64,000 bases of DNA from Candidatus Omnitrophota bacterium (GTDB lineage: Bacteria; Omnitrophota; Gorgyraeia; Tantalellales; Tantalellaceae): assembly GCA_014728075.1 (NCBI GenBank), contig WJMG01000075.1:4262-68261 (forward strand), given 5' to 3'. The position numbers and the translations under genes were made by a program. Numbering within the stretch: position 1 is the first letter of the stretch; every line of letters begins with the position of its first letter. The notes under the pieces are model-generated. The model was not told where the DNA came from, searched no databases, and was given only the letters and a program-made list of their open reading frames with translations. Below are positions 41,224-59,267 of the stretch, one piece after another.

Positions 41224-41254
41224 CCTGACCACCTCCTTTTTTGGCTTTATAAAG

Positions 41255-41300: not shown

Positions 41301-41440
41301 CCTTAACCCGGCCGCGGGCTTTATGAACTAAAAAAGAGGCTTCCATTCCGGTAAGCCTCTTCGCGTTTTGTACATCCGTGTACGACTTTTATTATACTAC
41401 TTTCCCGGATCAAAGTCAACAACTATCGTCTTTCACAAGG

Positions 41441-42148: not shown

Positions 42149-42264
42149 GATTTTTCCCCGGTTTAAATATTTATCGCTGCCCTGTCCTCGGGCATTCTCG
42201 AAACATATCCCCCGCTTTCACCCGGGCTTCTTCGCCGCGGAAGTTCCCGGGACATTCCGAGTTT

Positions 42265-42297
42265 ATGAGTTACGGGCGCAAAGCGCCCGTAACTCAT
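42265..42297. repeat. 33-nt perfect palindrome ATGAGTTACGGGCGC-AAA-GCGCCCGTAACTCAT
   Basis: 15-bp perfect inverted repeat with a 3-nt centre, 9 nt past the glnN stop codon and upstream of the GAF-ANTAR gene. Confidence 0.8.
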
Positions 42298-42306
42298 GTG
42301 CTCATT

Positions 42307-44400
42307 TTACATCATGAAGAGCATTTCCGCGTAAGACGGGAGCGGCCAGATCTCGTCCGGAAGAAGTTCTTCCAGACGGTCGACGGCTACTCTGAGCTCG
42401 TTCATAGCGTCTATCTTTTCGGAAGCCTTGCCTCCAAGAGCGGCTTCGAGTTCCTTTATACCCTTGAGCATCTTCTCGGTCTCGCCGCCTACTTCCTTGA
42501 GAAGGTCCATAGTACCGTCCGACTTGCACCCGCATGTTTTCATGTCATCTATGGTCCCCGCGAGCGAAGACTGGTACTCCAGGGCTATGGGAACTATCAT
42601 TGTCCTGGCCATTTTGAGCGCGACACTGGCTTCGATAGTAATGGTCTCTTCATACTGCTCCTCGTAGATATCGTGCCTTGAAGCCAGCTCCTCGGGTGTG
42701 AGGACTTTATGTTTCTTGAACATCTCGATCACTTTAGGATCTTTTGTAGCTTCGAGAGCCGCTTCGGTGTTCCTCAGGTTCGGAAGCCCTCTCTTTTCGG
42801 CTTCCTTGTGCCAGTCTTCGGTATAATTATCACCGTTGAAGAGTATTCTTTTATGTTTTTTGACTATACCCTGAAGCACGACCTGTAGAGCTTCGTTAAA
42901 ATCCTTACCGGATTTCACATCAGACTCGAGTTCCGTGCATATCTCATCGAGAGCATCCGCGACTATAGTGTTAAGCACGATGTTAGGCCCGGCGCAGCTC
43001 TGGTTGGATCCCGGCGCCCGGAACTCGAACTTATTCCCCGTAAAGGCGAAGGGGCTCGTCCTGTTCCTGTCAGTCACATCTTTGGGAAGCTGCGGCAGGG
43101 AATCCACCCCGAGTTCAAGGAGATCCGCCTGCTTTGAGCTTTTTGCGCCACCCTTTTCTATCTGGTCGATTATATCCGTAAGCTGGTCTCCCAGAAATAT
43201 GGACAGTATCGCCGGCGGAGCCTCGTTAGCGCCCAGCCTGTGGTCGTTACCGGCGGTAGCTACCGAAGCTCTAAGCATCGGCGCGTTAGTATCGATCGCC
43301 TTCATGAGCGCGCATATCATGGTAAGGAACTTGGCGTTCTCGTGCGGATTATCCCCCGGGGAAAGCCAGTTCTTGCCGTCCGGACCGACCACCGACCAGT
43401 TGTTATGCTTACCCGATCCATTGACCCCGGCGTATGGTTTTTCGTGAAGAAGGCATACAAAACCGTGCTTTTCCGCCACCTTTTTCAGCGTCTCCATACA
43501 TATCATGTTGTGATCTATCGAAAGGTTCTGCTCCTCAAAAACCGGAGCTATCTCGAACTGCGCCGGACAGACCTCGTTGTGACGGGTCTTTGCCGGTATA
43601 CCCAGCCTCCAGAGCTCCCTGTCCAGATCGTCCATAAAGGACATGACCCTTGTCCTGATAGCTCCGAAGTAATGATCGTCCATCTGCTGGTGTTTAGCCG
43701 GGGCGCTGCCGAAAAGGGTCCTTCCCGTCTGTATCAGGTCAAGCCTGGCTTCGTAAAACGACCTGTCGACAAGAAAATATTCCTGTTCGGGGCCGAGGGT
43801 GGCGTAAGCTCTCTTGTCTTTAGTGTCTATACCGAAAAGCCCAGCCAGGCGGCATACCTGTTTTGAGAGAGCCGCGACCGACCTTAAAAGAGGTGTCTTC
43901 TTGTCAAGCGCTACCCCTGTATAGGAATAGAAAGCCGTCGGGATGCACAGGGTCGCCCCTATTTCCCCTTTCTTTATGAAAGCGGGCGAAGTCGGGTCCC
44001 ATGCGGTATACCCTCTGGCTTCGAAGGTAGCCCTGAGCCCTCCGGACGGAAAACTTGAAGCGTCCGGCTCGCCTTTAATAAGCTCATTGCCGGAAAATTT
44101 CATAATAACGCCGCCTTCCTGGTCCGGCTCTATGAAAGAATCGTGTTTTTCGGCCGTCGCCCCCGTGAGCGGCTGGAACCAGTGGGTAAAATGGGTCGCG
44201 CCCTTAGCGACCGCCCAGGTCTTCATGGCGTCGGCGACCTCGTCGGCTATGGAAGGGTCTATCGTCTTGCCTTCCTTTATTGTCGCGATAAGCGAACCAT
44301 ACGCTTTTTCCGAAAGGTAATTGCGCATGTTCTTGATGCTGAAAACATTCTCGCCGTAAATATCCGCTACCGACCTTACTCCCATTTCTTCCTTACACAT
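42307..44400 (-). CDS. glnN: glutamine synthetase type III
   Basis: About 697 aa from MCKEEMGV (AAGGAGG Shine-Dalgarno sequence); length and conserved segments typical of GSIII (GlnN). Confidence 0.9.
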   Translation of the reverse strand: MCKEEMGVRSVADIYGENVFSIKNMRNYLSEKAYGSLIATIKEGKTIDPSIADEVADAMKTWAVAKGATHFTHWFQPLTGATAEKHDSFIEPDQEGGVIMKFSGNELIKGEPDASSFPSGGLRATFEARGYTAWDPTSPAFIKKGEIGATLCIPTAFYSYTGVALDKKTPLLRSVAALSKQVCRLAGLFGIDTKDKRAYATLGPEQEYFLVDRSFYEARLDLIQTGRTLFGSAPAKHQQMDDHYFGAIRTRVMSFMDDLDRELWRLGIPAKTRHNEVCPAQFEIAPVFEEQNLSIDHNMICMETLKKVAEKHGFVCLLHEKPYAGVNGSGKHNNWSVVGPDGKNWLSPGDNPHENAKFLTMICALMKAIDTNAPMLRASVATAGNDHRLGANEAPPAILSIFLGDQLTDIIDQIEKGGAKSSKQADLLELGVDSLPQLPKDVTDRNRTSPFAFTGNKFEFRAPGSNQSCAGPNIVLNTIVADALDEICTELESDVKSGKDFNEALQVVLQGIVKKHKRILFNGDNYTEDWHKEAEKRGLPNLRNTEAALEATKDPKVIEMFKKHKVLTPEELASRHDIYEEQYEETITIEASVALKMARTMIVPIALEYQSSLAGTIDDMKTCGCKSDGTMDLLKEVGGETEKMLKGIKELEAALGGKASEKIDAMNELRVAVDRLEELLPDEIWPLPSYAEMLFMM

Positions 44401-44448
44401 GACTACCTCCTTGGATTGTATGACACACACTAAATTTTACTCTTTTTC

Positions 44449-44690: not shown

Positions 44691-45392
44691 TTTTGTACCG
44701 GGTTCCGACCCCACTTTGTACCGGGTACGAACATAAAGCTGTAGCTGTCCCCTCAGTTTTTTGAAAGAATTACATCAAAAAAGTTGTATCTAATAGTGAG
44801 GGGGGATATTTATACGATCGTGTAAAAATCAACACAACCAACAGGAGGTGCTCAAAATGTCCAGAACGAAAAGAATACTTATCGACAACAGTTATTACCA
44901 CATAATAAACAGGGGAAATCGAAAAAAAGAGATCTTCAAACATGGATCAGATTACAGGCATTTTCTCTCTCTACTTAAAAAGGCGAAGAAAAAACATAAA
45001 GTAAAGATAAACGCTTACTGCTTAATGCCGAACCATATACATATCATCGCTTATATCCGGGAAGCAAAGACCATCTCCAGCTTAATGCACTATGTTTCCC
45101 GAAATTACGCCTCGTATTTTAATTCCAGATATGAAAAAGTAGGCCATCTTTGGCAAAGCAGGTTCAAGAGTTATCCTCTTCTCACGGAAGAATATTTGAT
45201 ACATGTGGCCAATTATATTGAAATAAACCCGGTAAAAGCAAAGATAGTGGATGACCCATCAAAATACACCTGGAGCAGTTACAATGAAAGATGCCTTATG
45301 CAAAAACAGTATCTTCTGGATCCTATTACGGTATAGGGACAGGTACAAGTTCAGATCGGTACCCGGTACAAAGCTGACACGGTACCCGGTAC
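44691..45392 (+). mobile_element. REP-RAYT-REP unit (REP-associated tyrosine transposase flanked by inverted REP sequences)
   Basis: IS200-like Y1 transposase ORF bracketed by inverted copies of a ~45-bp element GGGGACAG(G/C)TAC..-N8-GTACCCGGTACAAAG. Confidence 0.7.
44857..45336 (+). CDS. REP-associated tyrosine transposase (IS200/IS605 TnpA-like, Y1 HUH)
   Basis: 159 aa from ATG 44857 (AGGAGG Shine-Dalgarno sequence); HUH motif NHIHII and a downstream Tyr-containing helix (YVSRNYASYFN). Confidence 0.8.
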   Translation: MSRTKRILIDNSYYHIINRGNRKKEIFKHGSDYRHFLSLLKKAKKKHKVKINAYCLMPNHIHIIAYIREAKTISSLMHYVSRNYASYFNSRYEKVGHLWQSRFKSYPLLTEEYLIHVANYIEINPVKAKIVDDPSKYTWSSYNERCLMQKQYLLDPITV

Positions 45393-47177: not shown

Positions 47178-47636
47178 CTAAAAGGCGGAGAATAATTGTT
47201 CTTTAACGATGTCCAGAATATCTGATATTCTGGATTTTACTGTTTCGGAGAGATCAAGGTCATATCCCGTGTTCTCGGGCTGTACACCGATCACGGTTAT
47301 CCCGCAGTCGATCCCGAGCTTTTCGGCCAGCGTGAGGGTCTCGAGAAGCGCCATGCCGTGGGTCGAAACACTGTCGGAAAGATCGGCCTTTTTGATATCG
47401 CCCGGGCCGAACACCCGGATATCGCCCGGTTCAAGGTTCATGTCCGCGGCATCGATTATAATGGCCCGGCCTCCCTCGGGAAGGTATTTCAAAAGGTCCA
47501 TACCCGATATATCGGCTCCGTGCAGCTCGACATCGGGAGGGAATTTTTCCTTCTTGAGCTCGTCTATGACGCGCATTCCTATTCCGTCATCGCCCCGCAA
47601 TATGGAACCGACACCGATTATGAGGGTTTTTTTCAT
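47178..47636 (-). CDS. hydrogenase maturation protease
   Basis: 152 aa HyaD/HybD/FrhD family (IIGVGSILRGDDGIG...). Confidence 0.85.
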   Translation of the reverse strand: MKKTLIIGVGSILRGDDGIGMRVIDELKKEKFPPDVELHGADISGMDLLKYLPEGGRAIIIDAADMNLEPGDIRVFGPGDIKKADLSDSVSTHGMALLETLTLAEKLGIDCGITVIGVQPENTGYDLDLSETVKSRISDILDIVKEQLFSAF

Positions 47637-47721: not shown

Positions 47722-49062
47722 TTATACGAACTTTACATCCAGAAGATGGCAGGAGCAGGAAATGCAGGGATCGTAAGCCCTTACCAGCATTTCCGAGAGA
47801 AGCGTTATCTCCTCTTCCGACTTGCCGATGATCTCCGGTATCAGCTTCTTCATATCAAGGTCCACATTGGCAAGGTTCTGGTTCGTTGGTATACAGCAGT
47901 TCGCTTCGGTAACCACGGCTTTTTCGTCGGCCGTGTAGTCGTGGATAAGAAGGCCCCTCGGCACTTCCACGGCGCCTACTCCCCTTCCCTTCTTCACTTT
48001 GAAAGAAGGCCATTCGTCCCTGGTGGGCCAGGATGTCACAACATCATCGTAATCCACCCCGTTCTCCAGGAAATGGTCTATTATCCTTATCGCGTCGTAA
48101 GTACAATGCGCTATCTCGACCACCTGGGCTACGGTGTTCATGAACGGGTTGTAACAGGGAGCCTTCAAGCCCAGCTCTTCCGCGACGGCCTTGGCCTCGT
48201 CGTTAAGCTGTCCGCTGTTTATATTGAACCTCGCGAGGGCACCCACCATGTAGGAGTCCCGCTTGTTACGCGAATGCTTGGCCGTTGAATGGGCGGCATG
48301 GTACTCGTGGACTATTTCCATATAGTCCCCGGGCTTTACCGTGCCCGAAATATCGCTCGTCGTAAGTTCCCCTTCGTAGAACGCGTATTCGTCGGGATGC
48401 GTTAACGCCACATATTCCGTCTCCCTTTCGAAGTCGGGAAGCTTCACGGATTTGAATATCTCGACTGTCTCTTTCAGGTCGTCAAGCTGCCCGGTGAAGA
48501 TCTCCTTCATCTTTTCCAGTTCTTTTTTCGAAGGCAGCTTGGTCCACCCCCTCGGGCATACGCTGATAGGATGGGTATGCCTTCCGGCCATTATATCGCA
48601 CATGTCACTGTACTGGCGTTTCATACGAAGAGCCCTAAGCACCACATCTTTATGGGTCTTTATGAGAGGGACCACGCTCGGAGCCCCGAGCGCGTCCGGA
48701 GCCACCAGAAAATACGCGTGAAGAAGATGGCTGTCAAGGGTCTCGAGGTGAAGTATCAGCTTCCTGAAAAGTTTGGTCTGCTCGCTCACCTCGTAGCCCA
48801 TGGCCCCTTCCGCGGCCTGCACCGAGGCCATGCAATGGCCCGTCGAACAGATACCGCATATCCTGGAAGTTATATGCTGGACCTCAAAAAGGGACCTTCC
48901 TCTTACCATGGCCTCGAAAAAGCGGGGCGCCTCGACTATTTCCAACTGGCACTTTTCCAGCTTCCCCTCTTTCACATTGACCACGATGTTCCCGTGGCCC
49001 TCCACCCTGGTTATATACTCGACATTTATGTTCAGGTCTTTTTTGGCAAGTTCTCCGCTCAT
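47722..49062 (-). CDS. hydA: [NiFe]-hydrogenase large subunit, group 3 (sulfhydrogenase alpha-like)
   Basis: N-terminal RICGICSTGH and C-terminal DPCISCSCH Ni-binding motifs (Cys, not Sec) followed by a short cleavable extension. Confidence 0.9.
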   Translation of the reverse strand: MSGELAKKDLNINVEYITRVEGHGNIVVNVKEGKLEKCQLEIVEAPRFFEAMVRGRSLFEVQHITSRICGICSTGHCMASVQAAEGAMGYEVSEQTKLFRKLILHLETLDSHLLHAYFLVAPDALGAPSVVPLIKTHKDVVLRALRMKRQYSDMCDIMAGRHTHPISVCPRGWTKLPSKKELEKMKEIFTGQLDDLKETVEIFKSVKLPDFERETEYVALTHPDEYAFYEGELTTSDISGTVKPGDYMEIVHEYHAAHSTAKHSRNKRDSYMVGALARFNINSGQLNDEAKAVAEELGLKAPCYNPFMNTVAQVVEIAHCTYDAIRIIDHFLENGVDYDDVVTSWPTRDEWPSFKVKKGRGVGAVEVPRGLLIHDYTADEKAVVTEANCCIPTNQNLANVDLDMKKLIPEIIGKSEEEITLLSEMLVRAYDPCISCSCHLLDVKFV

Positions 49063-49829
49063 TTCTTCTCAGCCTCCTTTTCGGCGTCCATCCTGCACCT
49101 GTTGTAGAGATCGAACTTTTCGGTGATATCGTCTATAGTGTACCCGTACTTCTCGAGAAGCTCGGTCTGTCCCTGCTCGGCGGGATCATCGAGCAATCCC
49201 CGGCAGGAATAACAGGTATTCCCCCAGCTCGGGCACCAAGCGCCGCATCCGGCCCGGGTCACCGGCCCCATGCATACCTGCCCTTTCTCGAAAAGACAGA
49301 CATTCTCCTTGAGCTTACACTCGACGCATACCGGATAATCCGGCGGGGTATATCCCTTGCCGAGAAGGATGCTCTTGACGGCCTTAATGGTCTCGTCGTT
49401 ATTGCTGGGGCAACCGTGTATGAAATGATCCACCTTCACCACTTCGTGGACAGGCCTCGGCCAGCCCGCCTCCAGATGGGAATCTCTTCCCTTGTAAACG
49501 ATCTCTTTAGCTTCTTCGTCGGAAAAACGCCTCCTCAGGCCGTTAACTCCCCCGAGCGAGGCGCACGATCCGTAGGCAATTACTATCTTGGCGTTCTCCC
49601 GTATCTTCCTGACCCTTTCCTCGTCGTGTTTCCGCGTGATCGAGCCTTCCACAAAAGCTATATCGTATTCGTCGCTGCGCTCTGACATCGCTTCCCGGAA
49701 ACTCACTATTTCGCAGTGCTCGAGGAGGCCCAGAAAATTCTCGTTAAGATATGTCAGCTGCAGCTGACATCCTTCGCAGTCCGCGAAATCAAAAAACGCT
49801 ATGCGCACTTTCTTTTTATCTTCGCTCAT
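49059..49829 (-). CDS. hydD: [NiFe]-hydrogenase small subunit, group 3 (delta)
   Basis: 256 aa; N-terminal proximal-cluster motif (FADCEGCQ), no Tat signal, so a cytoplasmic enzyme. Confidence 0.85.
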   Translation of the reverse strand: MSEDKKKVRIAFFDFADCEGCQLQLTYLNENFLGLLEHCEIVSFREAMSERSDEYDIAFVEGSITRKHDEERVRKIRENAKIVIAYGSCASLGGVNGLRRRFSDEEAKEIVYKGRDSHLEAGWPRPVHEVVKVDHFIHGCPSNNDETIKAVKSILLGKGYTPPDYPVCVECKLKENVCLFEKGQVCMGPVTRAGCGAWCPSWGNTCYSCRGLLDDPAEQGQTELLEKYGYTIDDITEKFDLYNRCRMDAEKEAEKK

Positions 49830-50686
49830 AATGCCTCCTCCAATCCTTTTATCTCGTCATAAGTAAATGTAGGCCCGTCCTGGCAGACATAATTGTCGTT
49901 TATCTGGCAGTGCCCGCATTTCCCGAGTCCGCACTTCATCCTTCTCTCCAGCGAAAGTACTATGTGCTTCTCGGCGAGGTCCTTTTTAAGAAGCTCCGCC
50001 ACGACGAATTTGTACATGATCGGAGGCCCTACCACTACCGCGTAGGTCCTGTTGACATCAAGGTCCACGCCCGGTATGAGGGTGGTAATTACCCCTACAT
50101 TGCCCTTCCAGTCGGGAGCGGCCTTGTCCACCGTACACGCGTAATTTATATCGGCCATCTTCTCCCATTCGGCTATCTCGTCCGTAAAAAGCCGGTCTTT
50201 GGGCTCTTTACAGCCCAGGAGTATATTGACATCTCCGAAATCCCTTCTGCGGTCTATGACGAAGTTTATCAAACTCCTCAAAGGTACCAGGCCTATGCCC
50301 CCGGCCACGAAAAGAAGGTCGTTACCTTTAAGGTCATCCACCGGAAAAGGCCTTCCGAAGGGACCTCTTACTCCTATCTTGTCGCCTTCCCCTAGTTTAT
50401 GCATCTGCTCGGTAAAAGTGCCTACCTTTCTCACCACCACCTCGAAAGTGCTTTTGTCCTCTTTCGTGGGAGAGGAGGACACCGATATGGGCGCCTCTCC
50501 GATACCGAACAGGGAGAACTGCACGAACTGGCCCGGCATGTGGCCCAGCTCCTTCCCGCCTTCCAGCCTGATCTCGAAGAACTTCTCGTTCTCGGTCATC
50601 TGACACGCCTTCACTATAGTCCCCTCAACGGGAGAATACAGCGGGTCTATTGTAATGACTTTTTTATTTTCGCTGCAATTACACAT
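49826..50686 (-). CDS. hydG: sulfhydrogenase gamma-like subunit (FAD/NAD(P)-binding, 2Fe-2S)
   Basis: 286 aa PyrK/SudB-like with C-terminal CGLGKCGHC cluster. Confidence 0.8.
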   Translation of the reverse strand: MCNCSENKKVITIDPLYSPVEGTIVKACQMTENEKFFEIRLEGGKELGHMPGQFVQFSLFGIGEAPISVSSSPTKEDKSTFEVVVRKVGTFTEQMHKLGEGDKIGVRGPFGRPFPVDDLKGNDLLFVAGGIGLVPLRSLINFVIDRRRDFGDVNILLGCKEPKDRLFTDEIAEWEKMADINYACTVDKAAPDWKGNVGVITTLIPGVDLDVNRTYAVVVGPPIMYKFVVAELLKKDLAEKHIVLSLERRMKCGLGKCGHCQINDNYVCQDGPTFTYDEIKGLEEAL

Positions 50687-51722
50687 CCTGTTCTCCTTTT
50701 GCTAGGTCGTTAACGGTTTCTATCAGACTTATTTTGGCCATACAGGTCCTGGTGCACCGGCCGCATCCCGTGCAGAAGAACTTATCGTGTTTTCTTACGG
50801 GGTAATCGAATTTCCTGTAGTAACGATGTCTCTGACGGGAGGATCTTTCTTCGCGGAAGTTCTCGCCGCCGGCGACCTCCGCGAACTCGTTAAGCTGACA
50901 GGAATCCCATACACGGCCCCTCTCTCCGCCGGACATGTCGAGTTTGACATCGTCGTAGACATCGAAACAGTAACAGGTAGGGCAAACGGCCGTACAGTTG
51001 CCGCAGGACACGCAGCGCCTGCCCACATCGTCCCATACACCGGTATTGTTGTAGGACTTCTCGAAAAGCGGCTGAAGCTCCTTATACCCGGGATTGAGGG
51101 CCCTTTTGAACTTAGGCAGTTTCTTCTCCCGAAGGTCTTTGAGCTCTTTTTTTATCGCGTCCTGGTCAGCTTCTTTAAATATATTCCCGGAACCGATTAT
51201 CGCGTCGCCTTGTTTTGAATTTACATGAAGTATGTATTTATCCCCGGCATCCGTCATCATTATATCGTAGCCCGCCTTAGGAACATGGGTGTCCATGGTC
51301 ACGCAGGTGGCGTACTCGTCGCACGGGAACATGCATTCGTAGCCTATTATCGTTACATTCTTTCTTCTCTTCTTGTAATAGGGGTCGGCCGGATCTTTAT
51401 GGAAGACCACATCCAGGCACTCCAGTCCGTCTATGTCGCAGGTATGCATACCGAAGATCACCGTGGGTTCCATCTCTATGGAAGTGTCCTTCATCGATAC
51501 TTCTCCCATGTCGAATTTTCCCAGGGACTCTTTTTGAGGCATGATATATTTTTTCGGGGGAATGATCGTGGGTATGTACTCAAGGGACATATCTTCGCCC
51601 CCGGAAATATCGGCGAAAACAAAAAGGTTCTCTTTTTTCACCGGGGCGACGACCCTGTGCTTCTCCTTGAGGAGGTCTATGAATTTGCCCAGGTCGTCCT
51701 TTGCCAGGTAAACATATCTCAT
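50679..51722 (-). CDS. hydB: sulfhydrogenase beta-like subunit (4Fe-4S)
   Basis: 347 aa with C-terminal CxxCxxC..CP ferredoxin motifs. Confidence 0.8.
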   Translation of the reverse strand: MRYVYLAKDDLGKFIDLLKEKHRVVAPVKKENLFVFADISGGEDMSLEYIPTIIPPKKYIMPQKESLGKFDMGEVSMKDTSIEMEPTVIFGMHTCDIDGLECLDVVFHKDPADPYYKKRRKNVTIIGYECMFPCDEYATCVTMDTHVPKAGYDIMMTDAGDKYILHVNSKQGDAIIGSGNIFKEADQDAIKKELKDLREKKLPKFKRALNPGYKELQPLFEKSYNNTGVWDDVGRRCVSCGNCTAVCPTCYCFDVYDDVKLDMSGGERGRVWDSCQLNEFAEVAGGENFREERSSRQRHRYYRKFDYPVRKHDKFFCTGCGRCTRTCMAKISLIETVNDLAKGEQDV

Positions 51723-52390
51723 GCGTTTTTCTCCTTTTTGATTTTTATCTCATCCTTGATCCAGTCAATAAAACCGTCTATGCCATCTCCTGTCCTGCAG
51801 GATATCTCGAGTATTTTTATCCCGGGATTGACCTTTTTTATACTTTCCCTGCAGTATTGCGCGTCAAAATCCAGATAAGGCAGCAGGTCCGTCTTGTTTA
51901 TTATGGCCAACTTTCCCTCTTCTATGAGAAGAGGATATTTGGAAGGCTTGTCGTGACCTTCCGCGGTACTTAGAAACGCTATCTTCATATCCTCCCCGAG
52001 ATCGAACTCGGCCGGACATACGAGGTTACCGACATTCTCCACTACGATAAGGTCGGTGCCTGCAAGGTCGATCCCCTTCATCGCGCTGTCTATGAGCTGG
52101 GCATCGATGTGGCACGCGTTACCGGTGTTTATCTGAACTACCGGAAGCCCCAGGGCATCCATTCTTTCGGCGTCCCTGGAAGTAAAACAATCCCCTGTAA
52201 GAACGACGAAGGCTATCCCCTCTTCCCGAAGAAGAGGCCCTGTTCTCTCCAGAAACGCGGTCTTACCCGCGCCGGGGGAAGATATTATATTTATCATAAG
52301 GGTGCCTTGCGCGTCAAGGCGTTTCCTTATGCTTTGCGCTACATCGTCGTTCGCTCTCAGGATATTCTCTTTTATCACCTTAAACGCCAT
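51719..52390 (-). CDS. hypB: hydrogenase nickel incorporation GTPase HypB
   Basis: P-loop SPGAGKT and G-domain motifs. Confidence 0.9.
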   Translation of the reverse strand: MAFKVIKENILRANDDVAQSIRKRLDAQGTLMINIISSPGAGKTAFLERTGPLLREEGIAFVVLTGDCFTSRDAERMDALGLPVVQINTGNACHIDAQLIDSAMKGIDLAGTDLIVVENVGNLVCPAEFDLGEDMKIAFLSTAEGHDKPSKYPLLIEEGKLAIINKTDLLPYLDFDAQYCRESIKKVNPGIKILEISCRTGDGIDGFIDWIKDEIKIKKEKNA

Positions 52391-52411: not shown

Positions 52412-52759
52412 TCACCGATCACTGTACTCTATTTTCGATATCGTGAACTCCTTGCCGGATGTTATTTCTGTATCACTTTTCCCGCAACTCCCGCAGGTGA
52501 AGTCCATCTCTTCAACTTCCCTCTCGGTCGAACAGTTGCGGCATCTGACCTTTAGCGGAAGGACCTTTATCTCAAGTTCGGCCCTTCGGAGCTTCCGGCT
52601 TCTGGGAGTCCCTTTAAAGCCCGTTTCAAGTATCTCCGGCACTATATAATGCATTTTGCCGACCTCGAGGCATATCTTTTTCACATTTCCTATCCCGGGG
52701 TCCTTTACGACCGGCTCCAGCGTTTTCACTATATTTTCTGCAAATTTGATCTCATGCAT
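52412..52759 (-). CDS. hypA: hydrogenase nickel insertion protein HypA
   Basis: MHEIKF N-terminus and C-terminal CxxC...CxxC zinc site. Confidence 0.85.
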   Translation of the reverse strand: MHEIKFAENIVKTLEPVVKDPGIGNVKKICLEVGKMHYIVPEILETGFKGTPRSRKLRRAELEIKVLPLKVRCRNCSTEREVEEMDFTCGSCGKSDTEITSGKEFTISKIEYSDR

Positions 52760-52840
52760 TATCCTGCTTCCCCCGGCCGAAGAATAGTACAAAGCGTAAA
52801 ATCCTCAGCTCTTTACACTACGCGCCATTTTCTTGCTTTA

Positions 52841-53845
52841 CTAACAGATCCTCGGCAGCTGTTCGCCCGTTAACATATCGATTATCCTGGCGACCCCGTA
52901 TTTTGTCCTGACACAGACCTTTCCCGGGTTTTCGCCGGTAACTTCGCCGATCACGGCCGCCTCGCGCCCGTATTCGCAGGATCTAAGGGCCGCCAGGACT
53001 TCCTTCCCGGCCGCCGGGTCTACCATCATCACCGCTTTTCCTTCGTTGGCCATATAAAGCGGATCAAGCCCCAGAAGTTCGCACCCCCCTCTTACCGCGT
53101 CCGATACAGGTATACTCGCCTCTTCCAGCGTTATCCCCAGCGCGGTCCCCCGGACAGCTTCGTTAAGTGTCGTGGCCAGGCCGCCTCGCGTAGGATCACG
53201 CATAAAATCCACACCGGGAACATCACGAACAAGGGCTCCCAGCATTCCGTTAAGCGGAGCGCAATCGCTCTCGAGAGGGGTATCGAATTCCAGCCCTTTG
53301 CGTTTACTGAGAACGGCAAGCCCGTGATCCCCGAGAGTTCCCGTGACGATCACCTTATGGCCGGCCCTGATCTTCCCGGCCGAAGGCCTGGACTCCGAGG
53401 TAAAGACCCCTATACCCGAAGTATTTATGAACAAGCCGTCAGCTTCTCCCCTCCCCACGACTTTAGTATCCCCGGCTACTATTTTAACCCCGGCCTCGTT
53501 CGCGGCGGAGGCCATTGAAACAACTATTCTCTCAAGCTCTTCAAGTGAAAAACCTTCCTCAATTATGAACCCGCAGCTTATGTACCTGGCTTCCGCTCCC
53601 TGAACGGCGAGATCGTTCACCGTACCGCATATCGCGAGCTTGCCTATATCTCCTCCCGGAAAGAACACCGGCTTTATGACGAACGAATCTGTCGTAAAAG
53701 CTATTTCCCCGCTTTCGACAGCTACAACGGCCGAATCCTCCGTCCTCTCCAGGACCTCGTTGCCCAGTTCCCTGAAGAAAAGGCCCTTTATAAGCTCGTA
53801 TGTCTTTTTCCCGCCCGATCCGTGGGCAAGCGTTATTCGTTCCAT
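52841..53845 (-). CDS. hypE: hydrogenase maturation protein HypE
   Basis: 334 aa PurM-like; C-terminal ...PRIC. Confidence 0.9.
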   Translation of the reverse strand: MERITLAHGSGGKKTYELIKGLFFRELGNEVLERTEDSAVVAVESGEIAFTTDSFVIKPVFFPGGDIGKLAICGTVNDLAVQGAEARYISCGFIIEEGFSLEELERIVVSMASAANEAGVKIVAGDTKVVGRGEADGLFINTSGIGVFTSESRPSAGKIRAGHKVIVTGTLGDHGLAVLSKRKGLEFDTPLESDCAPLNGMLGALVRDVPGVDFMRDPTRGGLATTLNEAVRGTALGITLEEASIPVSDAVRGGCELLGLDPLYMANEGKAVMMVDPAAGKEVLAALRSCEYGREAAVIGEVTGENPGKVCVRTKYGVARIIDMLTGEQLPRIC

Positions 53846-53974: not shown

Positions 53975-55060
53975 CTAATTTCCGTATTTATACCATGCGG
54001 CGCAGGCGCCTTCGCTTGAGACCATGCAGGCGCCTTTTGGACCTTCCGGAATACAGGCCTTCCCGAAAAGAGGACAATCCGACGGGTCCTTAGCTCCTCT
54101 TAATATGTCCCCGCAAATACATCCGGGGAATTCCGCCGACGGCGGAACATCCACCTTGAACCTTACCCCGGCGTCAAGACCGGAATATTCTTTTCTGAGC
54201 TTCAGCCCGCTGTCAGGGATCATTCCCAGCCCTCTCCACTCAGCGTCACAGGGCTCAAAAACCCGGTCTATTATCGCGCAGGCCTTTCTGTTCCCTTCTT
54301 CCCTGACGGCGCGCCGGTAAGCATTTACCAGGCGCGGCCGGCCTTCTTCATGGGACTCTACCAGAAAATATATCGCGGAAAGCACATCGGCCGGCTCGAA
54401 CCCGGACACACAGCAAGAAACGCCGAGATCGTTCACTATCGGCCTGTATATCCCGGTGCCCGTTATCGTACTTACATGCCCCGGACAGATAAGGGCGTCT
54501 ATCCTGGAATCCTCGCCGGAAAGAACGGCCTTAAGCGCGGCGGGCATTGTCTTGTTCAACGAAAGAACGAAAAAATTATCGATATTCTCCTTTTTCGCCT
54601 GCAATACCGCGGCGGCGGCGGTAGGAGCTGTCGTCTCGAACCCTATACTCAGGAAAATAAAATCCTTATCCTTCTCTTCGGCCGCAAAAGACAGGGCGTC
54701 GTGCACCGAGTAGACCGTTCTTACATCCGCTCCCCCGGCCCGCGCCTTTTCCAGGCTGCTCCGGGAACCGGGCACACTGAACATATCCCCGAAAGTGCAG
54801 AGAACGGTGTTCCCGCATTCTGAAAGAGCTATGGCTCTGTCCATGTCCGAAATGGAAGTAACGCAAACGGGGCATCCCGGCCCGGATATCAGATTGATAT
54901 TATCACCGACAAGTTCATGAATACCATGCTTCCTTATGGACATGGTATGCCCTCCGCAGACTTCCATTATGTTCAGCTGTTTCGAGGAGAGTCCCTTTAT
55001 CCTGGAGGAAATTTCCCCGACGAGCCCGGCGTCCCTGTACTCATCAAGATATTTAAGCAT
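53975..55060 (-). CDS. hypD: hydrogenase maturation protein HypD
   Basis: CGGHT, GPGCPVC and CPVC Fe-S motifs; start set at MLKYLDEY. Confidence 0.9.
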   Translation of the reverse strand: MLKYLDEYRDAGLVGEISSRIKGLSSKQLNIMEVCGGHTMSIRKHGIHELVGDNINLISGPGCPVCVTSISDMDRAIALSECGNTVLCTFGDMFSVPGSRSSLEKARAGGADVRTVYSVHDALSFAAEEKDKDFIFLSIGFETTAPTAAAAVLQAKKENIDNFFVLSLNKTMPAALKAVLSGEDSRIDALICPGHVSTITGTGIYRPIVNDLGVSCCVSGFEPADVLSAIYFLVESHEEGRPRLVNAYRRAVREEGNRKACAIIDRVFEPCDAEWRGLGMIPDSGLKLRKEYSGLDAGVRFKVDVPPSAEFPGCICGDILRGAKDPSDCPLFGKACIPEGPKGACMVSSEGACAAWYKYGN

Positions 55061-55274
55061 CCCGACCGCCCTTTTTGAAAAAATCCAGGGTGAACTTCGC
55101 TCTTTCCTCGTCGACTTTCTGTATGGCGTATCCGGCATGGACCAGAACATACTCTCCCGGGGCCGGGTCATCTATAAGGTCCGTTGAAACGGGCCTTTTT
55201 ATCCCCGACAGTTCAATAACCGCGGTATTATCGTTCCTGACCTCAAGAATTTTACCGGGGACGCTCCAACACAT
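55053..55274 (-). CDS. hypC: hydrogenase maturation protein HypC
   Basis: 73 aa starting MCWSVPGKI (the MC(L/W)(A/S)VP signature); overlaps hypD start by 8 nt. Confidence 0.85.
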   Translation of the reverse strand: MCWSVPGKILEVRNDNTAVIELSGIKRPVSTDLIDDPAPGEYVLVHAGYAIQKVDEERAKFTLDFFKKGGRDA

Positions 55275-55340
55275 ATATCGATCTCCTGTCACCTTATTTT
55301 ATTTCGCGTACCGCTGCACGAGGCTCCCGTCACGCATCAG

Positions 55341-56423
55341 TTACATACTCGCGGCTATCACTGCCTGGCCTACGGATATCCCGAGATCGGTCGGAGAGTA
55401 TCTTTTATGAGTAAAAAGCTCCAGGCCCGATCCTTCAAATCTTTTTTTTACATATTCCAGCAGGTATTTGTTCTGGAAACATCCTCCGGAAACAACTACT
55501 TTCCGGACCCCTGTCCTTCGCGATATCCCTTCAGAAACCCGGTAAACGATCTCTCCCATCGTATTGTGAAAACGGGCGCTCACCTCTCCCGGAGACAGGC
55601 CCCTTTCCAGGTCGCGGGAGATCTCCCGGACCATGGGAAAAACATCGATCTCGTTACCGGACAGATCATAGTTATATGATCCTTCGATGCCCGGAAAGGC
55701 CGCTTTTTCAAGTTCAATGGCGGCTTCCGCCTCATAGGAGGAAGAATCGCGTATACCCGCTATGGATGACACCGCGTCAAAAAGGCGCCCGGCACTGGAA
55801 GTAAGGGGACAATTAATATCTTTATCTATCATTTCCCTTATAAAGGAAACCTTTTCCGGGCCTATCCTGTCAAAAAGAGGCGTCCTGATCCGGGCCATAT
55901 CACTGCCATATGCTTTAACGAGATAGGAGACCGCCATCCTCCATCCTTGCCGGGCGGCTATATCCCCTCCCGGCTGGGGCACATATTTAAAATGATATTC
56001 CCTGCTGAAATCTTTTCTGTCGCAAACGAGAAATTCCCCGCCCCATGCCCTTTCGTCCGTCCCGTAACCTGTACCGTCGAAAGAGACCCCTACTACTTTT
56101 TCCTCAAGACCGTTATCTTCCATGCAGGAAACCACATGAGCGAAATGATGCTGCACCTTAACGAGCCTTGCTCCTTCGATCTCGCCCCGGAAAGATTCCG
56201 CCAGGCGGGTTGAACCGTAATCCGGATGCAGATCACAGACCAGGCATAAAGGTCCTTTCCGGTCAGCGGGAAGGTGTTCTCTTATACCGGCCTCATAATC
56301 CTTAAGGACCCTTATGTCAGCAAGGTCTTCCAAAGGGGCGCTGACATAAAACTTTTTACCGTCCCTGACCGCGAAAGATGTTTTGTTCTGTGCTCCCAAA
56401 GCTATTATCTTCTTCATCTCCAT
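55341..56423 (-). CDS. hypF: HypF-like carbamoyltransferase, Kae1-like domain only
   Basis: 360 aa; HypF C-terminal signature VQHHFAHVVSCMEDNG and LGAQNKTSF Kae1 start. No room upstream for the acylphosphatase, Zn-finger or YrdC domains, because rex overlaps. Confidence 0.7.
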   Translation of the reverse strand: MEMKKIIALGAQNKTSFAVRDGKKFYVSAPLEDLADIRVLKDYEAGIREHLPADRKGPLCLVCDLHPDYGSTRLAESFRGEIEGARLVKVQHHFAHVVSCMEDNGLEEKVVGVSFDGTGYGTDERAWGGEFLVCDRKDFSREYHFKYVPQPGGDIAARQGWRMAVSYLVKAYGSDMARIRTPLFDRIGPEKVSFIREMIDKDINCPLTSSAGRLFDAVSSIAGIRDSSSYEAEAAIELEKAAFPGIEGSYNYDLSGNEIDVFPMVREISRDLERGLSPGEVSARFHNTMGEIVYRVSEGISRRTGVRKVVVSGGCFQNKYLLEYVKKRFEGSGLELFTHKRYSPTDLGISVGQAVIAASM

Positions 56424-57055
56424 CCGCCGTTCCCGCTTGCAAGAAAATAAGCGAGTATTTCCAGTTCCCTGGAAAGATCAACATTATTAACCTTGATCTT
56501 CCCGGGCACATCAAGATTGACAGGCGCAAAGTTCAATATGCATTTTATACCGGAATCCACGAGCACATCAGCCGCTTTCTGGGCTTCTCCGGCGGGAACG
56601 GCGATTATGGCCATGGGTATACCGTTCTCCTTGACGGCTTCACGCAGTTTTGCGAAACTTTCAACTTTAACGCCTTTTACGGAAGCACCTACAAGATCTT
56701 CAGAAACATCAAAAGCGGAGACTATGTCTAGGCCCTGTTCAGTGAACCCTGAGTAGGAAAGAAGCGCTTCCCCCAGATGCCCGACCCCTACCAGAGCGAC
56801 CTTCCACCGCTTATCTTTTCCCACGATCCTCTCGAGGGCCTTCTTCAACTCCAGGACATTATATCCCGAACCGCTCACGCCGAACTGGCCGAAATATCCG
56901 AGGTCTTTCCTTACCTGAGCGTCGCTCAGGTTCGTTCTCTCACCAAGTTCCGAAGAAGAAACCGTTCTTATGTTGAATTCGGAAAGTTCGGTCACTTCCC
57001 TCAGGTATATGAAAAGACGCTTTACGGTCGTCTCGGGTATACGCTTGGTGGCCAT
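56414..57055 (-). CDS. rex: redox-sensing transcriptional repressor Rex
   Basis: 213 aa; wHTH N-terminus and NAD(H)-binding Rossmann (VALVGVGHLGEALL). Confidence 0.85.
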   Translation of the reverse strand: MATKRIPETTVKRLFIYLREVTELSEFNIRTVSSSELGERTNLSDAQVRKDLGYFGQFGVSGSGYNVLELKKALERIVGKDKRWKVALVGVGHLGEALLSYSGFTEQGLDIVSAFDVSEDLVGASVKGVKVESFAKLREAVKENGIPMAIIAVPAGEAQKAADVLVDSGIKCILNFAPVNLDVPGKIKVNNVDLSRELEILAYFLASGNGGWR

Positions 57056-57228
57056 CGATGCCTTCAGTTCGTTACTTTTTTCACAAAGTTCGTTCTTAAT
57101 TTCACAAAGATGAATATATACCTTTTAATATAAAAAGTCAAGTATATCGCAGCGGGCGCGAGGAATGGGGCTAATCAGCTTTCAGACATCAGACATAAGC
57201 TGTCAGTCTCCGGCAGGCTGTGATGGGT

Positions 57229-57268: not shown

Positions 57269-59101
57269 TCAAGTCCTTTTCCTTTTTCCCAGGAGTATAA
57301 TGTCCCTCAGGCCGGCCTCGTCCTCCGCATCCATCCATTTTTTCTCAAACGCGGGATCTTCCACTATCTGGGCAATGGCGGAGAGCGCCCTCAAATGAAA
57401 AGGCCTTTCGTCCCTGGACCCTGCGATAACGAAAACCGCGTTCACACCGCTGTGGGCTCCGGGAAAGAAAATACCCTGCCGGCACCTGGCGATAAAAAGC
57501 AGGAACTGGTGCTCGCCGTTAACTATTATATGCGGAATGGCCAGTCCGGGCTTGAGCACGGTACTTGCCTGCTCCTCCCTGTCAAGAAGAAGCCTGAAAA
57601 CCTCCGAGGGAGAACAGTCCAGGCGACTGGCTATCTCGACGGCTATATCCCGAAAAAAATCCTCGGCGGTCATTTTGTTCGGTATATCGACCACGACACA
57701 TTCCTCGACTATCCTGTCAAAACGGTCTTTTTCTATATTATCCCTCTCCCTTATAATATCCCTCAGTTCCGTTTCAAGCGAGATATCCATGAACTCCTTG
57801 GCCGCGACCCTTTCGATAAGGTGCAGAAAAGCGAAATCTTTTTTTCCTCTCTGTCTTCCGTAGAACCAGTAAACGCTTAGGCCCGCCGCGAAAAGAAAAG
57901 ACCCCAGTATGAGCGCCGCTTTGCCTATATTAACTACCAGAAGCCAGCAGCCGAAAACACCGGCTATCTGCAGCCAGGGATAAAAAGGCGCCCTGAATTT
58001 GGGCTGGTAATTACGCACACCGCTTTCCCTCATAACTATTACGCACAGGCAGGAAAATATAAAGGTGAAGATCAGGACCGTAGAGGCTACTTTCACCAGG
58101 AGATCGAGTTTAAGGAAAAGCGCGCTTGCCATAAGTATTCCGGTAAGAAGAATAGCCGCGAAAGGTGTGCTTGTCTTCCTGTTTATCTTACCGAAGGCTG
58201 GAGGAAGCAGCCTGTCCCGGCTTAAAGCCAGCGGATAGCGTGAAGCAGACATTATCCCGGCGTTGGCCGTTGATATAAAAGCCAGTATGGCGGCAAAACC
58301 CAGAGCGATCCTTCCCGGGTGGTTTAAAAAGGCTTCCGCGCCGTCGGAAATAGGCGTCAGCGACTTGTCAAGTTCCCCGGAATCCAGAACCCCGCTTGTA
58401 ACATAGACCACAAGAGCGTAAACCACCGTTATCAAAACAAGAGAAAGTATCATGCCTCTGGGCACCGTCTTTCCGGGATCCTGCACCTCTTCAGCTATGC
58501 TGGCTATCTTCAAAAGGCCTCCGTAGGATACGAACACGAAACCGGCCGCGGAAAAAACGGGCACCATGCCGTACGGCGCGAAGGGTCGCAGGTTCGCGTG
58601 ATCTACCGCGGGAAACCCTTTCACTACATAAAAGGACAGTATACCGAGAAGAAGCACCACTATCGCTACCTGCACGCGGCTGGCTTCTTTTACTCCTACA
58701 AGGTTCAACGCGACAAAAAGCACACAAAGGCCAAGAGCGATGTATTTGATATCCCAGGGAACCACGGCGGAGGTAAAGGCCGCCATCCCTATAAGGGCGA
58801 AAGAGCTTTTGAGAGTTATGGACATCCATGTCAAAAGACCGTTTATGGTGCCGAGGGCGGGGCCCATGCTCCGTGTAACATAAAAATAGGTCCCTCCCGC
58901 CCTGGGCATAGCGGAAGCCAGTTCAGCCTGGCTGAGCATACCTGTCATAGCCAGAAGTCCCGCGAGCAGATAAGACACTATAACGGCCGGTCCCGCCATC
59001 GCGTGCGCAAGACCGGGAAGTATGAAAAGGCCCGAGCTTATCATCGCGCCGGAAGCGATACAGAAAACATCCAGCAATTTCAGTTCTCTTTTGAGTTCCA
59101 T
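57269..59101 (-). CDS. APC-family amino acid permease fused to a C-terminal PTS EIIA(Ntr/Fru type-2)-like domain
   Basis: 12 TM helices from MELKRELKLLDVF; C-terminal soluble domain with the LAIPH active-site-His context of PTS_EIIA_2. Confidence 0.7.
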   Translation of the reverse strand: MELKRELKLLDVFCIASGAMISSGLFILPGLAHAMAGPAVIVSYLLAGLLAMTGMLSQAELASAMPRAGGTYFYVTRSMGPALGTINGLLTWMSITLKSSFALIGMAAFTSAVVPWDIKYIALGLCVLFVALNLVGVKEASRVQVAIVVLLLGILSFYVVKGFPAVDHANLRPFAPYGMVPVFSAAGFVFVSYGGLLKIASIAEEVQDPGKTVPRGMILSLVLITVVYALVVYVTSGVLDSGELDKSLTPISDGAEAFLNHPGRIALGFAAILAFISTANAGIMSASRYPLALSRDRLLPPAFGKINRKTSTPFAAILLTGILMASALFLKLDLLVKVASTVLIFTFIFSCLCVIVMRESGVRNYQPKFRAPFYPWLQIAGVFGCWLLVVNIGKAALILGSFLFAAGLSVYWFYGRQRGKKDFAFLHLIERVAAKEFMDISLETELRDIIRERDNIEKDRFDRIVEECVVVDIPNKMTAEDFFRDIAVEIASRLDCSPSEVFRLLLDREEQASTVLKPGLAIPHIIVNGEHQFLLFIARCRQGIFFPGAHSGVNAVFVIAGSRDERPFHLRALSAIAQIVEDPAFEKKWMDAEDEAGLRDIILLGKRKRT

Positions 59102-59267
59102 GTCTTGAATCCTTCCGAATATTTTTAACGGCAAACATTAAGAAGATCTTAGCTGGAGGTCATAGCCGTTTGGAAAGCGTCAAAGTGTCATCCCTCGGCC
59201 TAACCTCGCTTGTGTCAAAGTGTCAAAGTAAAACCAGACGATAGAATCACATATTCAAGGCACAGTA

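What the first reader, a model, noticed from the sequence alone, without database searches (positions are those of the whole stretch)
55341..56423. Minimal HypF consisting only of the Kae1-like domain
Canonical HypF is about 750 aa: acylphosphatase, two Zn-fingers, YrdC and Kae1 domains. Here the ORF is 360 aa and starts at the Kae1 domain; the QHHFAH signature is present. The upstream gene rex overlaps it, leaving no space for the N-terminal domains, and no YrdC-like ORF is in the window. The carbamoyl-adenylate-forming activity for CN-ligand synthesis must therefore be supplied in trans, or follow a different route.
Basis: partly seen in the sequence, partly recalled or inferred. Interest (0 to 1): 0.5.

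Follow-up and report, generated by a model that had tools for sequence, protein, structure and literature searches.

The report
Kae1-only HypF of Omnitrophota
The hydrogenase-maturation gene hypF in this Omnitrophota genome really is cut down to its last domain, as in a large set of related uncultured bacteria, so the activated carbamoyl group that supplies the enzyme's cyanide ligands must come from an unidentified source.

Summary
ORF 55341-56423(-), more likely starting at 56417 (358 aa), covers only the Kae1-like domain of HypF: Pfam HypF_C plus HypF_C_2, and TIGR00143 positions 390-740 of 741. It overlaps rex upstream. It heads a hypC-D-E-A-B, group-3b [NiFe]-hydrogenase and protease operon. 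No acylphosphatase, zf-HYPF or YrdC domain occurs anywhere in the window.

The truncation is neither an artefact nor decay. The source is an Omnitrophota MAG. At least 90 related HypFs of about 360-400 aa have the same architecture, and 18 fetched loci show no N-terminal module within 10 kb. Catalytic residues are invariant, and conservation equals that of full-length HypFs. The window's clade has 91/100 bootstrap support.

A clade member, SKK-01 (98-100% complete), is published with hypA-E but no TIGR00143 hit. A full-length copy elsewhere is therefore unlikely.

The architecture has a precedent, Cupriavidus necator HypF1 (394 aa, 31% identical). It arose independently, and that genome also carries a full-length HypF2.

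Most likely this protein is the HypE S-carbamoyltransferase half-enzyme, fed carbamoyl-AMP in trans by a YrdC/Sua5-type enzyme. That supplier is unidentified, and a split N-terminal gene elsewhere is not excluded.

The parts
55341..56423 (-). Kae1-only hypF (360 aa from the first ATG; probable true start at 56417, giving 358 aa)
   Evidence: Pfam HypF_C plus HypF_C_2 only. TIGR00143 positions 390-740/741. Matches PDB 3vth_A residues 401-746, E 2e-66. AF2 model pLDDT 94.3, TM 0.90 to the HypF Kae1 domain.
56414..57055 (-). rex (redox-sensing repressor), overlapping the hypF start
   Evidence: NF003995, 251.7 bits, above cut-off. rex also lies directly upstream of hypF' in L003, L095 and L097.
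57113..57141 (-). sigma-70-like promoter candidate upstream of rex (TTGACT-17-TATATT)
   Evidence: Consensus scan only. Function not shown.
55053..55292 (-). hypC (real start probably the ATG at 55274, giving an N-terminal Met-Cys)
   Evidence: PF01455 86 bits; TIGR00074 77 bits; the match starts at residue 7.
53975..55171 (-). hypD (real start probably about 55063, 'MLKYLDEY')
   Evidence: TIGR00075 444.5 bits, above cut-off.
52841..53845 (-). hypE, ending in the acceptor motif PRIC
   Evidence: TIGR02124 459 bits, above cut-off 251.6. Sequence.
52412..52792 (-). hypA
   Evidence: PF01155 94 bits.
51719..52390 (-). hypB
   Evidence: TIGR00073 243 bits, above cut-off.
50679..51722 (-). group-3b (sulfhydrogenase-type) hydrogenase beta subunit
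   Evidence: Fer4_22. Best NCBIfam hits ShyB/HydB.
49826..50686 (-). hydrogenase gamma subunit (FAD/NAD-binding)
49059..49829 (-). hydrogenase small (delta) subunit
   Evidence: Oxidored_q6. Best hits HydD/ShyD.
47722..49062 (-). [NiFe]-hydrogenase large subunit with RICGICSTGH and DPCISCSCH motifs
47178..47636 (-). hydrogenase maturation endopeptidase
   Evidence: TIGR00072 121 bits.

Best explanation
This is the functional hypF of an Omnitrophota hyp operon, and it consists of the Kae1-like domain only. [quoted passage not shown] HypE then dehydrates the product to the thiocyanate that gives the Fe-CN ligands.

The steps normally done by the missing domains are carbamoyl-phosphate hydrolysis (acylphosphatase and Zn-fingers) and adenylation (YrdC). 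I infer that these are done by a separately encoded enzyme. The simplest candidate is a YrdC/TsaC/Sua5-family adenylate-forming protein, either the housekeeping one or a paralogue, which would hand carbamoyl-AMP to the Kae1-only protein. TsaC hands threonylcarbamoyl-AMP to TsaD in t6A synthesis in the same way.

Shown: the architecture, its conservation, its operon position, and the absence of the N-terminal module nearby and, in one near-complete relative, of any full-length HypF. Inferred: the catalytic role towards HypE and the in-trans origin of carbamoyl-AMP.
For: All active-site signatures are invariant in 30 clade members: Q91-H92-H93...H96, D116-G-x-G-x-G-x-D123, G212-R-L-F-D216, S312-G-G and D346. 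The same columns are conserved in 140 full-length HypFs.

The gene sits exactly where full-length hypF sits in another Omnitrophota genome: hycI-hypA/B-hypF-hypC-D-E in L078, against hycI-hypF'-hypC-D-E in L006 and L064. The rest of the pathway is intact: HypC, HypD, HypE ending in PRIC, HypA, HypB, the protease, and a large subunit with both CxxC motifs.

The same architecture and synteny recur on contigs of 100-250 kb. Eighteen Kae1-only loci have no ACP, zf-HYPF or YrdC within 10 kb, while 149 other loci carry the full N-terminus in frame.

Constraint is not relaxed. The window's clade has 91/100 bootstrap support.

SKK-01 carries the Kae1-only P0057 and is 100% (CheckM) or 97.8% (CheckM2) complete. 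It is listed with TIGR00072/73/74/75/100, TIGR02124 and TIGR00057 (TsaC/Sua5 family) but without TIGR00143.

Two further clade members, Ca. Tantalella remota and Ca. Aadella gelida, are 91-93% complete. Each has a single hydrogenase, of group 3b (PMC8542988).

Diffusible transfer of an acyl-adenylate between separate YrdC-type and Kae1-type proteins is established for t6A (PMC6004061). The same proposal has been made for C. necator HypF1 (PMC9100943).
Against: No supplier has been identified. Nothing YrdC-like is in the window or conserved next to the gene.

Carbamoyl-AMP and carbamate are described as highly labile. In full-length HypF they travel through an internal channel (PMC6022934).

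The only studied Kae1-only HypF, C. necator HypF1, failed to complement an E. coli hypF mutant and appeared inactive anaerobically in E. coli (PMC5350229 and PMC9100943). A housekeeping TsaC is therefore not generally sufficient.

The whole genome of this MAG could not be searched. The SKK-01 evidence rests on a TIGRFAM presence list and does not exclude a separate N-terminal half-gene.
Confidence: 0.5

Rival explanations
1. Split HypF. The acylphosphatase, Zn-finger and YrdC half is encoded as a separate gene elsewhere in the genome. It associates with the Kae1-only protein and rebuilds a canonical two-chain HypF.
For: This cannot be excluded genome-wide with these tools. The TIGRFAM list for SKK-01 would not necessarily register a half-length protein. 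The Pfam lists held for that paper do not include SKK-01.
Against: No such gene lies within 10 kb of 18 Kae1-only loci. A search with the N-terminal 400 aa of an Omnitrophota full-length HypF returned only two Omnitrophota-named clusters, both contig-end pieces of full-length genes. The N-terminal-only proteins on long contigs were frameshift halves lying beside their Kae1 ORF, on contigs with other broken genes. The 'S-x-H-I-G-D-L' motif is near-invariant in full-length HypFs (H 92%, I 97%, G 100%) but is lost in the Kae1-only clade. That fits loss of a former domain contact, although the motif's structural role was not verified.
Confidence: 0.2
2. The Kae1-only protein is self-sufficient or uses another donor. 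Its ASKHA nucleotide site would carbamoylate HypE directly from carbamoyl phosphate (with or without ATP), or from another carbamoyl source, with no YrdC-type step.
For: The clade is old, diverse and strongly conserved without any visible partner. Six residues are nearly fixed in the clade but variable in full-length HypFs: F17, C63, F115, Y147, M163 and Y167 in 360-aa numbering. Omnitrophota genomes are reduced (PMC10066038).
Against: No precedent is known. In HypF and TobZ the adenylate is made in the YrdC domain. There is no added domain or large insertion relative to the Kae1 domain of 3VTH. C. necator HypF1 is not self-sufficient in E. coli.
Confidence: 0.15
3. Accessory or redundant copy, as in C. 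necator. A full-length HypF elsewhere in this genome does the chemistry. The Kae1-only protein is then a helper, a regulator, or a decaying duplicate.
For: In C. necator H16, HypF1 (Kae1-only) coexists with the 807-aa HypF2. Full-length HypFs do exist in some Omnitrophota, namely L078 and P0242.
Against: SKK-01, from the same clade and 98-100% complete, has no TIGR00143 hit while hypA-E are all listed. The gene occupies the hypF slot of the only hyp operon seen. There is no relaxation of constraint. Full-length Omnitrophota HypFs were rare in the searches compared with 90 or more Kae1-only clusters.
Confidence: 0.1

Closest known systems
Cupriavidus necator (Ralstonia eutropha) H16 HypF1, pHG1 10034-11218, 394 aa
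   Same: The architecture is the same: Kae1-like domain only (HypF_C plus HypF_C_2). It is encoded in a hyp operon directly before hypC-D-E. The HxxxH and D ligands are retained. The literature already proposes that it needs externally made carbamoyl-adenylate (PMC9100943).
   Different: It is only 31% identical and lies outside the Omnitrophota clade in the trees, so it is an independent truncation. It coexists with the full-length HypF2, and with a HypF3, in the same genome. SKK-01 of the present clade has no full-length HypF. HypF1 belongs to an aerobic H2-oxidiser with O2-tolerant hydrogenases. The present gene belongs to a small-genome anaerobe with a group-3b enzyme.
Canonical HypF (E. 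coli; Caldanaerobacter subterraneus 3VTH/3VTI; Thermococcus kodakarensis 4G9I)
   Same: The Kae1-like domain is homologous over its whole length: 35% identity, TM 0.90 and rmsd 2.5 A to 3VTH. The operon partners are the same.
   Different: The roughly 400 N-terminal residues are missing (acylphosphatase, two zf-HYPF, YrdC). It fails the TIGR00143 cut-off. The SxHIGDL motif is lost.
TsaC/Sua5 plus TsaD/Kae1/Qri7 (t6A synthesis)
   Same: A YrdC-type adenylate-forming enzyme and a Kae1-type transferase exist as separate proteins, with a diffusible acyl-adenylate between them (PMC6004061). This is the arrangement proposed here.
   Different: The protein is not a TsaD: PF00814 scores 18.7 against a cut-off of 24.8, and TIGR03723 scores 24 against 296. 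The acceptor is a protein thiol, not tRNA A37.
TobZ/NodU/CmcH O-carbamoyltransferases
   Same: They use the same two-step chemistry, with Kae1-like and YrdC-like domains and no acylphosphatase.
   Different: Those enzymes keep both domains fused, in the reverse order. The window protein gave no Pfam hit to that family.

Membership tests
HypF carbamoyltransferase (TIGR00143 equivalog) | C-terminal Kae1-like domain (PF17788 plus PF22521) | tested here: met
   81 and 263 bits, full-length matches. TM 0.90 to 3VTH.
HypF carbamoyltransferase (TIGR00143 equivalog) | Metal and nucleotide site of the Kae1 domain (HxxxH, DGxGxG, C-terminal Asp) | tested here: met
   H92, H96, D116 and D346 are invariant in 30 clade members and in 140 full-length HypFs. 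They are aligned to 3VTH.
HypF carbamoyltransferase (TIGR00143 equivalog) | YrdC-like domain (PF01300) that makes carbamoyl-AMP | tested here: not met
   Absent from the protein and from the whole window.
HypF carbamoyltransferase (TIGR00143 equivalog) | Two zf-HYPF motifs (PF07503) and an acylphosphatase domain (PF00708) | tested here: not met
   Absent. rex ends at the start codon.
HypF carbamoyltransferase (TIGR00143 equivalog) | Whole-protein score above the curated cut-off | tested here: not met
   252.6 bits against 466.1. NCBI names P0001 'hypothetical protein'.
HypF carbamoyltransferase (TIGR00143 equivalog) | Encoded with hypC, hypD and hypE next to a [NiFe]-hydrogenase | tested here: met
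   Window. Relatives.
HypF carbamoyltransferase (TIGR00143 equivalog) | S-carbamoylation of the C-terminal Cys of HypE | not testable with these tools
   HypE with C-terminal PRIC is present. The activity needs biochemistry.
HypF1-type truncated HypF (C. necator) | Kae1-like domain only, about 360-400 aa, in a hyp operon | tested here: met
HypF1-type truncated HypF (C. necator) | Shared descent with HypF1 | tested here: not met
   31% identity. HypF1 groups with the Omnitrophota forms in only 11/100 bootstrap replicates.
HypF1-type truncated HypF (C. necator) | Coexists with a full-length HypF paralogue | tested here: inconclusive
   Not testable for this MAG. Not met in the clade member SKK-01, which has no TIGR00143 hit at 98-100% completeness.
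TsaD/Kae1/Qri7 (t6A transferase) | Score above the family cut-offs | tested here: not met
   PF00814 18.7 against 24.8; TIGR03723 24.1 against 296.

The most novel reading that the evidence does not exclude
Members of this Omnitrophota lineage have no HypF-type adenylation module at all. The cyanide ligands of their [NiFe]-hydrogenases would then be made through a relay in which the housekeeping t6A enzyme TsaC/Sua5, or a so-far unrecognised enzyme, supplies carbamoyl-AMP or another carbamoyl donor to a free-standing Kae1-only HypF. That would be a route to Fe-CN not described for any organism.
Probability: 0.35. Interest if true: 0.7.

Novelty: new variant of a known kind. Interest (0 to 1): 0.5.

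Why it matters
HypF is treated as an indispensable four-domain enzyme. Its internal channel is thought to protect two labile intermediates.

A large, old and well-conserved bacterial lineage appears to mature group-3b and group-4 [NiFe]-hydrogenases with only the last domain. In at least one near-complete genome there is no full-length copy. This gives a natural system for asking where carbamoyl-AMP can come from. The question has stood since C. necator HypF1 was described.

There is also a practical consequence. These genes fail the TIGR00143 cut-off and are often deposited as 'hypothetical protein'. Metabolic reconstructions of Omnitrophota may therefore score hypF as missing.

Tried and rejected
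1. Looking up the source contig by exact protein failed: P0001 is not on record.

They returned mostly full-length HypFs of other phyla. They are useful as a control set but not as a census of Omnitrophota.

3. L007 (P0087) first looked like a YrdC-Kae1 intermediate form. The HMM scan then found acylphosphatase and Zn-finger pieces upstream in other frames, on a contig with several broken genes. It is a frameshifted full-length gene.

4. The N-terminal-only proteins P0140, P0222 and P0190 were candidate split HypFs. Each lies beside its Kae1 ORF on an error-prone long-read contig, so they were rejected.

5. I searched for a conserved non-hyp neighbour that could be the adenylate supplier. Only a MetE-like gene, an AbpE-like gene and a NIL-ferredoxin recur, and only in one sub-group. 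None is adenylate-forming.

6. The ThiH-like radical-SAM gene at 19217-20350 was considered as a HydG-like cyanide source. It was rejected because it sits in a thiamine operon behind a TPP riboswitch.

7. A Rex operator search gave a match with 3 mismatches at 57069-57086, which is not above chance.

8. Shomura & Higuchi 2012 (PMC3436534) is not held. The structural role of the SxHIGDL motif could therefore not be checked.

9. The Pfam presence lists in the Seymour et al. source data are cut before SKK-01. PF07503 could not be read for that genome.

10. The third protein-database search was not used, because no query would have targeted one genome.

Full report
**1. The observation**

The minus-strand ORF 55341-56423 encodes 360 aa. 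Pfam finds only the two halves of the HypF Kae1-like domain: HypF_C (residues 4-102) and HypF_C_2 (112-353). NCBIfam TIGR00143 aligns residues 3-357 to model positions 390-740 of 741. The score is 252.6 bits, far below the 466.1 cut-off.

The best solved relative is Caldanaerobacter HypF 3VTH, residues 401-746 of 761 (E 2e-66). An AlphaFold2 model (pLDDT 94.3, pTM 0.92) superposes on the Kae1 domain of 3VTH, 3TSP and 4G9I with TM 0.89-0.90 and rmsd about 2.5 A. TsaD and Kae1 proteins follow far behind.

The rex gene (56414-57055) ends inside the first codons of the ORF. Homologues begin 'MKK(I/V)(I/L)ALGA' and NCBI's protein is 358 aa. The real start is therefore probably 56417, giving an ATGA stop-start overlap.

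There is no room for N-terminal domains, and none is encoded elsewhere in the window. A profile of the zf-HYPF+YrdC region finds nothing in the six-frame translation (best E 0.8). Pfam scans of essentially all ORFs of 130 aa or more show no Sua5_yciO_yrdC, zf-HYPF or Acylphosphatase hit.

**2. Surroundings**

The gene heads a co-directional block. In order it holds rex, hypF', hypC, hypD, hypE (ending PRIC), hypA and hypB. Four subunits of a group-3b (sulfhydrogenase-type) [NiFe]-hydrogenase follow, and then the maturation endopeptidase. The large subunit carries RICGICSTGH and DPCISCSCH. Every other maturation function is thus present and canonical.

A promoter-like site lies upstream of rex. 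The Rex-box match there is not above chance.

**3. Source and relatives**

The identical protein is MBD3380093.1 from a Candidatus Omnitrophica MAG, deposited as 'hypothetical protein'.

The protein database holds 56 further clusters at 48-58% identity (P0002-P0057). Nearly all are 349-392 aa. Where named, they are Omnitrophota, including Ca. Tantalella remota, Ca. Aadella gelida and Ca. Omnitrophus magneticus. A further set of about 360-405 aa lies at 41-46% identity. All start at the first strand of the Kae1 domain.

On contigs of 89-247 kb the same context recurs. The upstream neighbour varies (rex, LeuRS or a polyamine operon). Then come hypF', hypC-D-E, sometimes hypA-B, and a group-3b or Mrp-linked group-4 hydrogenase.

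In a search of 1.84 billion representatives, 44 of the best 150 are 356-413 aa with the match beginning within the first 45 residues.

**4. How unusual is it?**

I fetched 160 HypF-encoding loci from species-representative genomes and from metagenomes. I scanned them together with the loci already fetched, 171 in all, using local profiles for the Kae1 domain, the zf-HYPF+YrdC region and the acylphosphatase domain.

- 149 loci carry the N-terminal module in frame directly upstream.
- 18 loci have none within 10 kb despite at least 700 nt of upstream sequence.
- 4 loci start too close to a contig end to classify.

The 18 comprise C. necator HypF1 and 17 loci that are Omnitrophota wherever the record names a taxon. 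The one exception is a bin labelled Planctomycetia. In-frame stops lie within about 100 nt upstream of the Kae1-only starts checked.

Not all Omnitrophota are like this. L078 and P0242 encode full-length HypFs of 763 and 775 aa, and L078 has it in the same operon slot.

**5. Phylogeny and constraint**

In a neighbour-joining tree of 271 Kae1 domains, 91 sequences form a clade that is entirely Kae1-only. The full-length Omnitrophota HypFs group with other full-length proteins. C. necator HypF1 lies outside the clade.

Bootstrapping a 65-taxon subsample gives 91/100 for the window's sub-clade. The Omnitrophota Kae1-only forms group to the exclusion of all full-length HypFs in 75/100 replicates. 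HypF1 joins them in only 11. A single old truncation in Omnitrophota is therefore favoured but not firmly shown. Independence from HypF1 is well supported.

The active-site columns are invariant in the clade and identical to those of full-length HypFs. At matched HypD divergence the Kae1-only proteins are at least as conserved as the Kae1 domain of full-length HypFs. For HypD at 60-70% identity, the figures are 55.9% against 48.7%. This is not a decaying gene.

One difference stands out. The motif S-x-H-I-G-D-L is near-invariant in full-length HypFs (H 92%, I 97%, G 100%) but is lost in the clade. The window has S-A-P-L-E-D-L. I could not verify what that motif does.

**6. Is there a full-length or split partner elsewhere?**

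Direct whole-genome search was not possible, so three indirect tests were made.

(a) I searched with the N-terminal 400 aa of the Omnitrophota full-length HypF (L078). Only two Omnitrophota-named clusters came back, and both are contig-end pieces of full-length genes. The N-terminal-only proteins on long contigs lie beside a Kae1 ORF on long-read contigs with other broken genes. They are frameshifts.

(b) No non-hyp gene is conserved next to hypF' across the clade.

(c) The source data of Seymour et al. 2023 list TIGRFAM hits at the noise cut-off for genome 104. That genome is SKK-01 ('Omnitrophus magneticus', GCA_000954095.1; CheckM 100%, CheckM2 97.8%). The list contains TIGR00072, 00073, 00074, 00075, 00100 and 02124, which are the protease, hypB, hypC, hypD, hypA and hypE. 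It also contains TIGR00057, the TsaC/Sua5 family. It jumps from TIGR00136 to TIGR00149, so TIGR00143 is absent.

SKK-01's HypF is P0057, which is 361 aa, Kae1-only, and in the window's clade. A near-complete genome of this clade therefore has no full-length HypF. A separate N-terminal half-gene would not necessarily reach that cut-off, so it remains possible.

Williams et al. 2021 also report a single hydrogenase per MAG for Ca. Tantalella and Ca. Aadella, which are 91-93% complete.

**7. What is already known**

The architecture has a precedent. C. necator H16 HypF1 (pHG1 10034-11218, 394 aa) is Kae1-only by Pfam and 31% identical to the window protein.

Fan et al. [quoted passage not shown] They found it apparently inactive in anaerobic E. 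coli (PMC9100943). Lamont et al. 2016 found no complementation of an E. coli hypF mutant (PMC5350229). That genome also encodes the 807-aa HypF2 and a HypF3.

I found no paper linking Omnitrophota and HypF.

**8. Mechanism**

In canonical HypF the acylphosphatase domain releases carbamate from carbamoyl phosphate. The YrdC domain then adenylates it, and the Kae1 domain transfers the carbamoyl group to HypE. The labile intermediates move through an internal channel (PMC6022934; PMC9633730).

The protein here can only perform the last step. I consider it most likely (about 0.5) that carbamoyl-AMP is supplied by a separately encoded YrdC/TsaC/Sua5-type enzyme. In t6A synthesis TC-AMP diffuses in the same way between separate TsaC and TsaD proteins (PMC6004061).

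The rivals, in order of weight:

- a split N-terminal gene elsewhere (about 0.2);
- a self-sufficient Kae1 enzyme or another carbamoyl donor (about 0.15);
- an accessory copy beside a full-length HypF (about 0.1).

Against the favoured model stand the lability of carbamoyl-AMP and the failure of HypF1 in E. coli.

**9. Verdict**

The kind of protein is known from one proteobacterial case. What appears to be new is an independent and widespread Omnitrophota lineage in which it sits in the hypF slot. In at least one near-complete genome of that lineage it is the only HypF.

Noticed in passing
window 22268-22376 (-): A TPP riboswitch (RF00059, 73 bits) lies ahead of a thiamine operon: ThiE 21260-21913, ThiG 20428-21234, a ThiH-like radical-SAM gene 19217-20350 and ThiF 18526-19170.
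   Followed up: partly
window 28158-44430 (-): A nitrogen-assimilation block. It holds two tandem amtB-glnK pairs (Amt 36092-37438 with P-II 35673-36023; Amt 38014-39360 with P-II 37660-38007). It also holds type-III glutamine synthetase 42307-44430, a GAF-ANTAR regulator 41441-42148, and glutamate synthase large and small subunits 29779-34311 and 28158-29789.
   Followed up: partly
window 7431-10994 (-): An oxygen-stress cluster: two rubrerythrins, desulfoferrodoxin, a flavodiiron protein (ODP plus flavodoxin) and ferritin. This fits an anaerobe.
   Followed up: no
window 44848-45336 (+): An IS200-type Y1 transposase. It is one of very few plus-strand genes, lying between the nitrogen block and the hydrogenase block.
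   Followed up: no
window 1-64000: Almost every gene is on the minus strand, and GC skew is negative in every 2-kb bin across the 64 kb.
   Followed up: no
window 12099-13391, 39395-40276, 40702-41346, 18007-18522, 40192-40632 (all -): ORFs of 146-430 aa with no Pfam match at E<=1e-4.
   Followed up: no
window 53975-55292 (-): The mechanical ORF starts of hypC, hypD and hypA are too far upstream. Family matches begin at residue 7 (hypC, giving the required Met-Cys N-terminus), about residue 37-40 (hypD) and residue 12 (hypA).
   Followed up: partly
window 57269-59134 (-); L003 6582-8411: An amino-acid permease fused to a PTS EIIA-type domain lies upstream of rex, both here and in a relative on a 247-kb contig.
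   Followed up: no
L022 8959-9990, L026 2868-3902, L027 1027-2058, L062 8838-9872, L005 7477-8529, L080 6804-7823: In the second sub-group of Kae1-only loci, a conserved gene of about 345 aa lies directly or closely upstream of hypF'. It has only a weak match to the cobalamin-independent methionine synthase catalytic domain (E 0.011). An AbpE-like gene and a NIL-ferredoxin follow hypE. Their relation to maturation is unknown.
   Followed up: partly
window protein residues 28-34 (SAPLEDL); alignment: The S-x-H-I-G-D-L motif is near-invariant in 140 full-length HypF Kae1 domains but is lost in the Kae1-only clade. Six other positions are fixed in the clade only. The structural meaning was not checked.
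   Followed up: partly
L007 9101-11398; L089 6001-8404; L090 6001-8332; L091 6001-8048: Long-read metagenome contigs carry full-length hypF broken by frameshifts into an N-terminal ORF and a Kae1 ORF, alongside other broken genes. They can be mistaken for genuine split HypFs.
   Followed up: yes
L026 (CAZTIQ010000043.1): A Kae1-only hypF locus whose bin is labelled 'uncultured Planctomycetia' groups tightly with Omnitrophota loci (L022, L062, L027). This could be mis-binning, mis-classification or gene transfer.
   Followed up: no
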